64,000 nt of DNA, from the NCBI RefSeq assembly GCF_044324785.1, contig NZ_CP172127.1, one strand, 5' to 3'. Below are positions 35,001 through 38,000 of the stretch, piece by piece. The stretch comes from Escherichia coli (GTDB lineage: Bacteria > Pseudomonadota > Gammaproteobacteria > Enterobacterales > Enterobacteriaceae). How positions within the stretch are numbered: the first letter of the stretch is position 1; every line of letters begins with the position of its first letter. A program made the position numbers.

Positions 35001-38000
35001 TGGCATGATGCGCGGTCGTGCGCTGGCAGGGGCAAGTGGTGATCGGGAAACGCAAATATTTTGTACGAACCTGATGGCGGAACTGGTGTCCATCGCAGGT
35101 GAATACTGGCTGAGTGATCAAATCCCAGCAGAATTTTATGGCAAAGCGGCGCGACTGCAGTTAGTCGAAAACGCTTTGACCGTTCAACCGTTAAATTGAT
35201 CCCTTTTTAACAAGGAATTTCTATGGCACGCATTATTGTTGTTACTTCGGGCAAAGGGGGTGTTGGTAAGACAACCTCCAGCGCGGCCATCGCCACTGGT
35301 TTGGCCCAGAAGGGAAAGAAAACTGTCGTGATAGATTTTGATATCGGCCTGCGTAATCTCGACCTGATTATGGGTTGTGAACGTCGGGTCGTTTACGATT
35401 TCGTCAACGTCATTCAGGGCGATGCAACGCTAAATCAGGCGTTAATTAAAGATAAGCGTACTGAAAATCTCTATATTCTTCCGGCATCGCAAACTCGCGA
35501 TAAAGATGCCCTCACCCGTGAAGGGGTCGCCAAAGTTCTTGATGATCTGAAAGCGATGGACTTTGAATTTATTGTTTGCGACTCCCCGGCAGGGATTGAG
35601 ACCGGTGCGCTAATGGCACTCTATTTTGCAGACGAAGCCATTATTACCACCAACCCGGAAGTCTCCTCAGTACGCGACTCTGACCGTATTTTAGGCATTC
35701 TGGCGTCGAAATCACGCCGCGCAGAAAATGGCGAAGAGCCTATTAAAGAGCACCTGCTGTTAACGCGCTATAACCCAGGCCGCGTAAGCAGAGGTGACAT
35801 GCTGAGCATGGAAGATGTGCTGGAGATCCTGCGCATCAAACTCGTCGGTGTGATCCCTGAGGATCAATCAGTATTGCGCGCCTCTAACCAGGGTGAACCG
35901 GTCATTCTCGACATTAACGCCGATGCGGGTAAAGCCTACGCAGATACCGTAGAACGTCTGTTGGGAGAAGAACGTCCTTTCCGCTTCATTGAAGAAGAGA
36001 AGAAAGGCTTCCTCAAACGCTTGTTCGGAGGATAAGTTATGGCATTACTCGATTTCTTTCTCTCGCGGAAGAAAAACACGGCCAACATTGCAAAAGAACG
36101 GCTGCAGATTATTGTTGCTGAACGCCGTCGCAGCGATGCAGAACCGCACTATCTGCCGCAGTTGCGTAAAGATATTCTTGAGGTCATTTGTAAATACGTA
36201 CAAATTGATCCTGAGATGGTAACCGTACAGCTTGAGCAAAAAGATGGCGATATTTCTATTCTTGAGCTGAACGTGACCTTACCGGAAGCAGAAGAGCTGA
36301 AATAAGCCCGCTGTAAAAGCGCATTTATCTTCAAGGCAGAGTCATCTCTGCCTTGAGTTTTTCATCCCCCTCATCCACGTTTGATAAGAGCGGCGAGTAT
36401 TCTTGCTGATGCTACTCATTGCTTCCCCCCCTTTACACCTTAATGCCGTTCCCCCCACACAGAACAAAATGTTTATACCTGGCTGAGTAAATAACCTTAT
36501 TGTTAGTATGGGTATGCTGGGAGATGATAACCCCGCAATTTCATTATTCATTGTTCTCCCATAGGATGAGGTTTCCCGCCGTAACTGGCGGGCTTTTTTT
36601 GCCGCAGAATTTTCCCTTTTAACACCCTGTAAACGAAAACTGCGCCGAAGCGCAGTTTAATCGTTGATAGTCAGAACGACCAGTTCGCACCAGCCACCGC
36701 GTTCCACGGGGATTCCACACCGGCACCATGGCTATACCCCACCCCGAGATGCCCGCTTAACGAACTGCTGAATGAGGCTTTAATACCTGCCTGATATATT
36801 CCACGTCTGCCCGACAAATCATTGACAAAATTACCGTCATTATTCACTTTCACCCGGTTATCATCGACAAATTCTTTGCGCACAGCCATTTTCAGCCACG
36901 GCTCAACTTCCATGCCGTTCCCCAGACGCATGTTGTAACTCAGCGTTGCACCCAGTTCACGATATATACTGCGGGTATCGACTGATTTCGATTCCATGCC
37001 ATTGGATAAATGATAGTAGCGTCTAAGTGACCTTAGCTCTGCTGCAACATCATCCCGCAGGCACCAGACCAGGGGATTGATCCTGAAGAGGCAGCGCAAG
37101 TGTATTGTGTTCACCGCTCATCAAAGACATCATGATGAAATAATGATATCCCGCATAAGAAAGAGGCATTTTTTAAACGCAGTGCGCTGAAATGTAGTTG
37201 GATAAAAAAATCACTCTTTTCTGATAATACTGTTGTACGCTTATTTTTCGACAATGAGGCCGTCGACAAAATAAAATGACTAATGTAATCGTTGCTGATG
37301 AATATCTTCTGCTCACATAAAAATCACACAATAATATTGATAAATCAGATTATCTTACCTTTACAACATTGTATTAACAGTCAATGACACTTCTTGAATA
37401 AAAATATTGTCAATCAATGAGTTATTTCTCATTTGAGATTATTCTTATTCCCGTAAAAAACATAATTCCTATCATCACAGTCACGCTCATTTTGAATTAT
37501 CTGAATAATAGCGAGCGTTCTTTAGTTAAGCAGATCTTAATTGAAGACGAAATTATTGTGTGTGCAACTTACTTAATACCGGACATCTAAGTTGAAGAAA
37601 AAAATACTTGCCTTCGGGCTTATCTCAGCATTGTTCTGCTCCACGCCAGCGATGGCGGATATGAATCGCACCACGAAAGGTGCATTGCTAGGCGCAGGCG
37701 TTGGTTTACTTACTGGCAATGGTGTTAATGGCGTACTGAAAGGTGCAGCTGTTGGCGCTGGTGTTGGTGCAGTAACAGAAAAAGGCCGCGACGGTAAAAA
37801 TGCGCGTAAAGGTGCAAAAGTGGGTGCCGCCGTTGGTGCTGTCACTGGCGTTCTGACCGGCAATGGCCTCGAAGGGGCGATTAAAGGTGCCGTGATTGGC
37901 GGTACGGGTGGTGCAATTCTGGGTAAAATGAAATAAGGAATGATGATGAAAAAATTTGCTTTACTGGCGGGTCTGTTTGTTTTCGCACCAATGACCTGGG

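What the first reader, a model, noticed from the sequence alone, without database searches (positions are those of the whole stretch)
36366..36601. About 210-nt non-coding interval bounded by two same-strand intrinsic terminators
The minE terminator (36334..36365) is followed by a region with no convincing ORF and then a second strong hairpin plus T8 run (36575..36600) on the same strand. A short transcript ending at a strong terminator without a coding sequence is the usual signature of a small RNA or a small-protein gene. The interval is C-tract rich (ccccccc runs).
Basis: inference. Interest (0 to 1): 0.3.

Follow-up and report, generated by a model that had tools for sequence, protein, structure and literature searches.

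The report
Unnamed Hfq-bound small RNA after minE
The last ~65 bases of the gap after the E. coli cell-division gene minE look like a small regulatory RNA gene: they are strongly conserved, and published interaction data show an RNA from there bound to the chaperone Hfq, but it is unnamed and unstudied.

Summary
The window is E. coli. After minE there are two same-strand hairpin-plus-T-run terminators, at 36330-36362 and at 36575-36600 (T7, not T8), with no credible ORF between them.

The interval is not one unit. The C-tract part (36366-36482) is hypervariable and looks like spacer. The last ~66 nt (36535-36600) are identical in 78% of 5,316 E. coli records. Of these, 57 nt are 100% identical in E. 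albertii, where synonymous minCDE sites are only 74-82% identical. Upstream, the pattern resembles a promoter: TTGTTA, a variable 17-nt spacer, then an invariant GATGAT.

Published K-12 Hfq RIL-seq tables list "minE.ycgI.IGR". In stationary phase it has 137 chimeric fragments and 5 partners, is always second in the chimera (as sRNAs are), and has a U-tract of 7. It was never validated or named.

Best reading: an Escherichia-restricted, Hfq-binding base-pairing sRNA of about 65-76 nt. Its 5' end, promoter and targets are inferred or unknown.

A minus-strand ORF with a good Shine-Dalgarno sequence (36 aa in most strains) shows near-neutral polymorphism and frameshifted alleles, so it is probably a mirror image of the RNA's anti-SD motif.

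This is a new member of a known kind, of modest interest.

The parts
36039..36305 (+). minE coding sequence (upstream neighbour)
   Evidence: 88-aa ORF; annotated as minE in RefSeq records.
36330..36362 (+). minE intrinsic terminator: 12-bp stem, 4-nt loop, T5
   Evidence: -19.8 kcal/mol, z -6.6. The GGCAGA...TCTGCC core is shared with E. albertii, Salmonella and Citrobacter.
36366..36482 (.). Variable C-tract spacer, probably without function of its own
   Evidence: 43% identity to E. albertii. About 15% divergence with indels between E. coli alleles. C5, C7 and C6 runs.
36483..36500 (+). Short conserved block CTGAGTAAATAACCTTAT just upstream of the putative -35. It may be a regulator or UP-type site (inferred).
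   Evidence: 17 of 18 positions identical in E. albertii, while the flanks are 43-59% identical.
36500..36528 (+). Putative sigma-70-type promoter: -35 TTGTTA (36500-05), 17-nt spacer, -10 GATGAT (36523-28)
   Evidence: It is the only + strand match of 8/12 or better shared by nearly all E. coli alleles. The spacer is polymorphic while the -10 hexamer is invariant across 79 metagenome copies. It falls below the 9/12 threshold of the tool. E. albertii has TGGTGA and AATGAT. Inferred; no start-site data.
36535..36600 (+). Candidate Hfq-binding sRNA of about 66 nt. The 5' end is inferred and could lie as far upstream as ~36525. K-12 MG1655 equivalent: complement(1223978..1224043).
   Evidence: Positions 36535-36591 are 57/57 identical in E. 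albertii. The 66 nt are 100% identical in 4143 of 5316 E. coli records and never below 95%. K-12 RIL-seq 'minE.ycgI.IGR': 137 chimeric fragments, 5 partners, SIC 0.8, U-tract 7.
36545..36563 (+). Predicted single-stranded loop AUUCAUUGUUCUCCCAUAG carrying the anti-Shine-Dalgarno/anti-start motif UUCUCCCAU. Proposed seed.
   Evidence: Minimum-energy fold of 36536-36600. Invariant except C36561A in the ST131-type allele. Its seed role is inferred.
36575..36600 (+). Intrinsic terminator and Hfq-binding 3' module: CCCGCC/GGCGGG stem, 6-nt loop, C, U7
   Evidence: The U-tract length of 7 agrees with the RIL-seq table. The G36588A variant, with an extra T, weakens the stem to -5.0 kcal/mol and is found in 17 of 79 metagenome copies.
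36637..36658 (-). Terminator hairpin of the convergent ycgI/autotransporter gene. Not part of the sRNA.
   Evidence: -17.6 kcal/mol, z -5.3. 20 of 22 positions conserved in E. albertii.
36671..37114 (-). ycgI: C-terminal remnant of an autotransporter beta-barrel gene (context)
   Evidence: Annotated as a pseudogene. The E. albertii locus L003 has a 754-aa ORF here.
36342..36551 (-). Minus-strand ORF with GGGAGA-N5-ATG: 69 aa in this strain, 36 aa in most E. coli. Considered and judged probably not a gene.
   Evidence: Product lengths are 15, 36, 38, 39, 44, 49 and 69 aa among 75 copies. Polymorphisms in the 36-aa class: 20 nonsynonymous, 9 synonymous, ratio about 0.6, not distinguishable from neutral (p 0.20). 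Database relatives only in E. coli and Shigella, with frame switches. No Pfam family.

Best explanation
The 3' end of the minE-ycgI intergenic region encodes a small, Hfq-associated, base-pairing regulatory RNA on the minE strand. Its most likely form is about 65-76 nt. It would be transcribed from its own weak promoter (-35 TTGTTA at 36500-05, -10 GATGAT at 36523-28, start near 36535). It would end at the CCCGCC/GGCGGG hairpin and U7 tail (36575-36600), which would also be the Hfq-binding 3' module. The 5' two-thirds are predicted to fold into a 9-bp stem whose 19-nt loop shows UUCUCCCAU, the complement of a Shine-Dalgarno sequence plus AUG. That motif would pair with ribosome-binding sites of target mRNAs, mainly in stationary phase. 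What is shown: both terminators, the strong and sharply bounded conservation, and, from published tables, the Hfq-dependent chimeras and their sRNA-like orientation. What is inferred: the 5' end, the promoter, the fold, the seed and the targets.
For: (1) Selection. Positions 36535-36591 are 57/57 identical between E. coli and E. albertii. Third codon positions of minC, minD and minE are 74-82% identical, and the flanking intergenic DNA is 39-59% identical. At about 78% neutral identity, 57 consecutive matches have a chance of roughly 1e-6 (my arithmetic). The 66-nt unit is 100% identical in 4143 of 5316 E. coli records and never below 95%. Over the whole 371-nt region only 46 records are at least 99% identical and 4545 fall in the 90-95% band.
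(2) Boundaries. Conservation stops at the T-run. It starts about 7 nt after an invariant GATGAT hexamer, which is preceded by a polymorphic 17-nt spacer and a conserved TTGTTA.
(3) Experiment (literature). Supplementary Table 1 of Bar et al. 2021 (PMC8175672) analyses K-12 Hfq RIL-seq data. It lists minE.ycgI.IGR in stationary phase with 137 chimeric fragments, 5 unique partners, SIC 0.8 and U-tract 7. Its sRNA score is 0.276, between rybB (0.292) and spf (0.228). In log phase it has 12 fragments and 1 partner. SIC is S minus 1/k, so S = 1.0: the RNA is always second in the chimera, the position typical of sRNAs. The only U7 on that strand of the region is this terminator. The order of gene names follows the strand of the RNA, as the EPEC table shows, so the RNA is on the minE strand.
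(4) The terminator points one way only: T7 follows the hairpin on the + strand, and there is no T-run on the other strand.
(5) Neither strand shows a conserved protein.
Against: No transcription start site or 3' end at this position could be retrieved. The curated Term-seq tables of Adams et al. lack even the minE terminator. The Cappable-seq and SMRT-Cappable-seq supplements that are held contain nothing here. The promoter match is weak (8/12, below the tool's threshold), and its -35 is poorer in E. albertii. The candidate was not among those tested by northern blot in Bar et al., and its score of 0.28 is moderate. There is no covariation: 0 of 17 pairs show compensatory change, and every departure in a stem is disruptive. 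About a fifth of copies carry G36588A, which weakens the hairpin from -12.3 to -5.0 kcal/mol. The predicted 5' stem-loop is only marginally more stable than shuffles (z -1.8). There is no Rfam family and no homologue outside E. coli and E. albertii among 80 enterobacterial minE loci. Some Escherichia clades lack the element altogether, so it is dispensable.
Confidence: 0.55

Rival explanations
1. The same Hfq-bound RNA exists but is not an independent gene. It would be the 3' end of transcripts that read through the minE terminator, released by RNase E-type processing, like 3'UTR-derived sRNAs such as CpxQ or FliX.
For: The E. coli minE terminator has only a T5 tail followed by C, so some read-through is plausible. 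The internal promoter match is weak. Many RIL-seq candidates near it in the ranking are 3'UTR-derived. In EPEC there is + strand RNA even beyond the second terminator.
Against: About 170 nt of hypervariable sequence with many indels lie between minE and the conserved block. E. albertii has a stronger minE terminator (T6ATTTTT tail) yet keeps the block perfectly. The conserved-variable-conserved pattern upstream fits a promoter better than a processing site.
Confidence: 0.2
2. The second hairpin is only a backup terminator that protects the convergent autotransporter gene from minE read-through. The Hfq chimeras would be incidental binding to a U-tailed terminator fragment with no regulatory role.
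For: The genes converge, and tandem terminators are common in such gaps. Hfq binds many terminator 3' ends. The stem-weakening allele is frequent, and IS4-insertion and deletion alleles exist.
Against: A terminator does not explain 40 nt of perfect conservation 5' of the hairpin across species. It also does not explain five distinct partners with the RNA second in every chimera. The gene it would protect is a decayed remnant in E. coli, yet the block is better conserved than that remnant (71% identity).
Confidence: 0.1
3. The conserved feature belongs to the minus strand: a small protein gene (36 aa in most E. coli, 39 aa in E. albertii) with a strong GGGAGA-N5-ATG start at 36551. The + strand RNA might be its cis-antisense repressor, in the manner of a type I toxin-antitoxin pair.
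For: There is a good Shine-Dalgarno sequence and ATG. 59 of 75 metagenome copies keep a 36-aa frame. The frame is also open in E. albertii. UTI89 annotates a gene of unknown function here (C1358). The + strand RNA is perfectly complementary to this start region.
Against: Polymorphism in the ORF is near neutral (20 nonsynonymous, 9 synonymous; ratio about 0.6; p 0.20 against neutrality). Codons 1-9 are invariant at synonymous sites too, which indicates constraint on the nucleotides rather than the protein. The ST131-type lineage truncates it to 15 aa, and this window's allele changes the C-terminus (69 aa). Only about 55% of residues match E. albertii. There is no conserved minus-strand promoter: the 8/12 match at 36633-36606 lies in sequence that is not conserved in E. 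albertii. No Pfam family. No clean hydrophobic helix is evident by eye (no prediction was run). An RNA carrying an anti-SD/anti-AUG motif necessarily looks like SD plus AUG on the opposite strand.
Confidence: 0.08
4. The block is a DNA-level element, such as a protein-binding site or a recombination/insertion scar of the autotransporter island, and not an RNA gene.
For: It is present or absent together with the autotransporter remnant across Escherichia clades. It always sits at a fixed distance from minE and ycgI.
Against: The RIL-seq data show that it is transcribed and Hfq-bound. The hairpin plus T-run is a strand-specific RNA signal. There are no repeats or paralogues elsewhere in E. coli, plasmids or phages.
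Confidence: 0.04

Closest known systems
Intergenic Hfq-dependent enterobacterial sRNAs with their own promoter (for example RybB, MicA, RydC)
   Same: Size of about 65-80 nt. GC-rich terminator hairpin with a tail of at least 7 U. The RNA body is conserved while the flanks drift. Second position in RIL-seq chimeras. Stronger signal in stationary phase.
   Different: Restricted to E. coli and E. albertii rather than shared across enterobacteria. Not in Rfam. No validated transcript, regulator or target. The proposed seed sits in a loop rather than at the 5' end (prediction).
sRNA candidates predicted from RIL-seq by Bar et al. 2021, several later validated or named by others
   Same: It comes from the same data and the same feature set, and its score lies in the same range.
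   Different: It was not chosen for northern validation and is not discussed in the main text. It lies about 230 nt beyond the minE stop codon and behind a terminator, so it is not an obvious 3'UTR product.
Type I toxin-antitoxin and cis-antisense pairs (Sib/Ibs, Rdl/Ldr, IstR/TisB)
   Same: A small RNA ending in a terminator lies opposite the ribosome-binding site of a short ORF.
   Different: The ORF is not conserved as a protein and is frameshifted in major lineages. No hydrophobic toxin-like helix is evident by eye. It is single-copy. The weak Rfam IstR hit (16 bits against a threshold of 45) covers only the neighbouring ycgI terminator hairpin.
Tandem or backup intrinsic terminators in gaps between convergent genes
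   Same: Two same-strand terminators follow minE, and a third faces them from ycgI.
   Different: Backup terminators do not carry a 40-nt perfectly conserved 5' extension, nor multiple Hfq-dependent partners.

Membership tests
Hfq-dependent base-pairing sRNA | Rho-independent terminator with a long 3' U-tail (Hfq proximal-face module) | tested here: met
   Stem of 6 G-C pairs in the fold (7 pairs by the scan), followed by U7. It is weakened in the G36588A allele carried by about 21% of copies.
Hfq-dependent base-pairing sRNA | Physical association with Hfq and ligation to partner RNAs on Hfq | not testable with these tools
   Literature only. K-12 RIL-seq-derived table: 137 chimeric fragments, 5 partners, always second in the chimera (PMC8175672 Table S1).
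Hfq-dependent base-pairing sRNA | Discrete small transcript with defined 5' and 3' ends | not testable with these tools
   No northern, start-site or Term-seq entry was found. The 5' end is inferred from the conservation boundary and a weak promoter match.
Hfq-dependent base-pairing sRNA | Conserved seed complementary to target mRNAs | tested here: inconclusive
   The candidate loop motif UUCUCCCAU is invariant except in the ST131-type allele. A scan of the 64-kb window found no duplex better than shuffled controls apart from the RNA's own antisense strand. A whole-genome target search was not possible.
Hfq-dependent base-pairing sRNA | Purifying selection on the RNA body relative to its flanks | tested here: met
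   57/57 identity to E. albertii against 39-59% in the flanks and 74-82% at synonymous sites. 78% of E. coli records are identical over 66 nt.
Structured RNA family (Rfam) | Match to a curated covariance model at its gathering score | tested here: not met
   The best hit within the block is 12.9 bits (anti-hemB, threshold 49.5). Nothing reaches threshold.
Structured RNA (any) | Compensatory base-pair changes supporting the fold | tested here: inconclusive
   0 of 17 pairs show a change on both sides. 13 pairs never vary and 4 depart only by disruptive single changes. The sequences are too similar for this to count for or against the fold.
Type I toxin-antitoxin | Conserved small (usually hydrophobic) toxin ORF opposite the RNA | tested here: not met
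   Product length varies from 15 to 69 aa. The nonsynonymous/synonymous ratio is about 0.6 and not significantly below neutral. Frameshifted alleles occur in major lineages. No family match.
Small-protein gene on the + strand | ORF with a start signal, ending before the terminator, conserved in frame | tested here: not met
   The + strand ORFs are 20-40 aa. The 40-aa one runs through the hairpin and T-run into sequence that is not conserved.

The most novel reading that the evidence does not exclude
An evolutionarily young sRNA confined to E. coli and E. albertii, which arrived with or arose beside an autotransporter gene next to the min operon. It would outlive the decay of that gene in E. 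coli because it was recruited into the stationary-phase Hfq network. Its loop-displayed anti-Shine-Dalgarno motif would silence several mRNAs and might also act in cis on read-through from the autotransporter gene. That would give a dated example of sRNA birth and retention at an island boundary in the best-studied bacterium.
Probability: 0.15. Interest if true: 0.5.

Novelty: new member of a known kind. Interest (0 to 1): 0.35.

Why it matters
E. coli K-12 is the reference organism for sRNA biology, yet this locus is not annotated in the RefSeq records seen here and is absent from Rfam. If confirmed, it adds one Hfq-dependent regulator with five unexplored partners to the stationary-phase network. 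It also offers a well-bounded case of a lineage-restricted sRNA. It is present in about 98% of E. coli genomes and in E. albertii, and absent from some Escherichia clades and from other genera. Natural disrupted, weakened and seed-variant alleles already exist for comparison. It does not change how sRNAs are understood.

Tried and rejected
**Searches that found nothing**
- Rfam scan of 35900-37300 at E <= 10: only sub-threshold noise.
- blastn of the region against 80 enterobacterial minE loci: only E. coli, one Escherichia sp. and E. albertii match.
- Paralogue search in E. coli genomes, plasmids and phages: single copy. The "plasmid" hits carry the same chromosomal minE context where examined.
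- Metagenome scan with a 23-nt core pattern: 82 loci, all with the same minE/ycgI context. It added no new taxa beyond an E. albertii-like copy and no covariation.

**Protein hypotheses**
- Database search, translation of 75 copies, nonsynonymous/synonymous count and Pfam: no support for coding.

**Target search**
- The first script timed out.
- The second found nothing above shuffled controls in the 64-kb window except the antisense strand.

**Literature**
- No paper text mentions the RNA, its sequence, or "minE.ycgI".
- Term-seq, Rend-seq, Cappable-seq, SMRT-Cappable-seq and CLASH supplements had no entry at K-12 1223970-1224060 or were not held.
- The RIL-seq primary tables and the Thomason start-site set were not available.

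**Other ideas dropped**
- A sigma-54 reading of TGGGTATGCTGG: by eye, the GG and GC are 6 nt apart instead of 10-11, and the bases are polymorphic.
- A sigma-S-like TATACT -10 at 36513-18 exists in K-12-type alleles but varies between alleles (TATGCT, TATCCT, TACACT). It is kept only as an alternative start near 36525.
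Full report
**Where the window comes from.** The window is Escherichia coli. The region is 100% identical to strain N3 and is present in 5,416 of 5,426 complete genomes. minC, minD and minE lie on the + strand, with minE at 36039-36305. In K-12 MG1655 the equivalent DNA is the 371-bp gap between minE (b1174) and the ycgI pseudogene (b4521). ycgI is the C-terminal remnant of an autotransporter and converges on minE. Nothing is annotated in the gap in K-12 or in any RefSeq record seen.

**The observation.** Both same-strand terminators are real.
- The first has its stem at 36330-36357, followed by T5 (-19.8 kcal/mol, z -6.6).
- The second has its stem at 36575-36592, then C, then T7 at 36594-36600 (-12.3 kcal/mol).
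- A third hairpin at 36637-36658 faces the other way and ends ycgI.
- The C-tracts are present, with 38 C against 15 G in 36366-36470.
- No + strand ORF exceeds 40 aa.

**The interval is two different things.** I aligned ten E. coli alleles and E. albertii and measured identity segment by segment.

| Segment (window) | Identity to E. albertii |
|---|---|
| 36366-36482 (C-tract part) | 43% |
| 36483-36500 | 17 of 18 |
| 36501-36534 | 59% |
| 36535-36591 | 57 of 57 |
| 36592-36636 | 39% |
| Third codon positions of minC, minD, minE | 74-82% |
| ycgI remnant | 71% |

- The C-tract part also differs by about 15%, with indels, between E. coli alleles.
- The block that ends at the second terminator is therefore far better conserved than neutral sites, and even than the neighbouring coding DNA.
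- Within E. coli the 66-nt unit 36535-36600 is identical in 4143 of 5316 records and never below 95%. Over the whole gap most genomes are only 90-95% identical to this window.
- Seventy-nine further copies from metagenomes show the same picture. Polymorphism is dense at 36483-36522. It is almost absent from 36523 to the T-run, apart from a few terminator variants; 36549-36571 was fixed by the search pattern.

**Promoter-like pattern.** The only + strand sigma-70-like match shared by nearly all E. coli alleles is TTGTTA (36500-05), a 17-nt spacer, then GATGAT (36523-28). It scores 8 of 12, below the tool's reporting threshold. The spacer is polymorphic while the -10 hexamer is invariant. Perfect cross-species conservation begins about 7 nt downstream, where a start site would be expected. 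This is inference. In E. albertii the -35 is weaker (TGGTGA). K-12-type alleles also carry a TATACT at 36513-18 that could give a start near 36525. I therefore give the RNA as about 65-76 nt.

**Experimental support from the literature.**
- Supplementary Table 1 of Bar et al. 2021 (PMC8175672) scores every RNA in the K-12 Hfq RIL-seq data sets. It lists "minE.ycgI.IGR".
- In stationary phase the entry has 137 chimeric fragments, 5 unique interactions, SIC 0.8, U-tract 7 and sRNA score 0.276. In log phase it has 12 fragments and 1 interaction.
- The paper defines SIC as the fraction of chimeras in which the RNA is second, minus 1/k. With k = 5 the RNA is second in all of its chimeras, which is the hallmark of an Hfq-bound sRNA.
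- The U-tract value is the longest U run within 50 nt of the mapped segments. The only U7 on that strand of the gap is at 36594-36600.
- The gene order in such names follows the strand of the RNA. The EPEC table marks minE.ymgJ.IGR as "-", which is the minE strand there.
- The score places the entry between rybB and spf, and next to the entry fliC.fliA.IGR.
- The candidate was not among those tested by northern blot and is not mentioned in the main text. No paper in the library names it or contains its sequence.

**What could not be checked.** I found no start-site or 3'-end record for this position.
- The curated Term-seq lists lack even the minE terminator, so that absence says little.
- Other supplements were empty for this position or not held.

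**The opposite strand.**
- The reverse complement of the conserved block reads GGGAGAACAATGAATAATG, a good Shine-Dalgarno sequence and ATG. It opens an ORF of 69 aa here and of 36 aa in most E. coli.
- Database relatives are confined to E. coli and Shigella. They have lengths of 61-103 aa and switch frames.
- Among 75 metagenome copies the product is 15, 36, 38, 39, 44, 49 or 69 aa. The ST131-type allele truncates it to 15 aa.
- Within the 36-aa class there are 20 nonsynonymous and 9 synonymous polymorphisms. The ratio is about 0.6, which is not distinguishable from neutral (p 0.20).
- Codons 1-9 are invariant at synonymous sites as well, which indicates selection on the nucleotides.
- There is no Pfam family and no conserved minus-strand promoter.
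- An RNA that carries an anti-SD/anti-AUG motif must look like SD plus AUG on the other strand. I take the ORF to be that mirror image and keep it as a low-probability rival.

**Structure.** The 65-nt RNA is predicted to form a 9-bp stem enclosing a 19-nt loop with UUCUCCCAU, then the terminator (-16.2 kcal/mol, z -1.8). Covariation cannot test this. Of 17 pairs, 13 never vary, none shows a compensatory change, and the four that vary do so only by disruptive single changes. G36588A, together with an extra T, weakens the terminator to -5.0 kcal/mol and is found in 17 of 79 metagenome copies. That is a mark against uniform constraint.

**Distribution.**
- Among 80 enterobacterial minE loci, only E. 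coli, one partial Escherichia sp. contig and E. albertii carry the sequence.
- Three other Escherichia lineages (L004, L006, L008) lack both ycgI and the block. In them minE is followed by a different terminator.
- E. albertii has a 754-aa autotransporter ORF where E. coli has the ycgI remnant.
- The element is single-copy, always in the same context, and absent from phage and genuine plasmid records.
- There is no Rfam match.

**Verdict.**
- The best explanation is an unnamed, Escherichia-restricted, Hfq-binding base-pairing sRNA that is most active in stationary phase.
- Whether it has its own promoter or is cut from minE read-through remains open.
- It is a new member of a well-known kind, with modest interest.

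Noticed in passing
window ~36870-36900 (+), antisense to ycgI; EPEC NC_011601 1330963-1330975 (-); locus L091: In EPEC E2348/69 Hfq RIL-seq, an RNA named minE.ymgJ.IGR forms 22 chimeras with ArcZ (odds ratio 2710, p 5e-39). The site is antisense to the autotransporter remnant, about 270 nt beyond the T7 terminator. The ArcZ seed pairs with the EPEC sequence at -29 kcal/mol. The window strain differs at that site. So + strand RNA exists beyond the second terminator, at least in EPEC.
   Followed up: partly
window ~36551 and ~36840 (minus strand TGAATAATGA at both): Some E. coli carry a ~290-bp deletion between two copies of TGAATAATGA. It fuses the ycgI remnant in frame to the intergenic ORF and removes the terminator and part of the conserved block (proteins P0002 and P0005...VKVNNEIAGLSS...). 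Metagenome locus L172 has a different deletion starting right after the T-run.
   Followed up: partly
L088 (strain CE0032f), equivalent to window ~36569: An IS4 element is inserted inside the conserved block, just 5' of the terminator hairpin. This is a natural knockout allele.
   Followed up: no
L004, L006, L008 positions 3265-3500 (other Escherichia lineages): These lineages lack ycgI and the candidate sRNA. minE is followed by a different hairpin (ATCTGACAG...CTGTCAGAT) and then directly by the ymgJ/ymgI region. Salmonella and Citrobacter share the GGCAGA...TCTGCC minE terminator core with E. coli and E. albertii.
   Followed up: partly
window 36366-36482: Within-species divergence here is unusually high for E. 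coli: about 15% with several indels and changes in C-tract length. There are two main haplotypes, and the window's allele is the rare one (46 of 5,418 records at 99% identity or more).
   Followed up: partly
window 36637-36658 (-): The ycgI terminator hairpin carries two uncompensated stem changes in B2-type alleles (AAACAGCGCCGAAACGCAG). This fits decay of the pseudogene's signals, while the neighbouring sRNA block stays intact.
   Followed up: no
window 37050-37331 (-) and 37417-37590 (+): ymgJ is annotated as frameshifted in this strain. A 39-aa hypothetical ORF (WP_001131444) overlaps it. The 57-aa ymgI-like ORF sits directly upstream of ymgG.
   Followed up: no
UTI89 region ycgI-minCDE (literature): A filamentation screen in UTI89 found enrichment extending from minCDE downstream through the unannotated gene C1358 and the ycgI homologue. 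The authors could not separate this from linkage to minC (PMC6206680).
   Followed up: no
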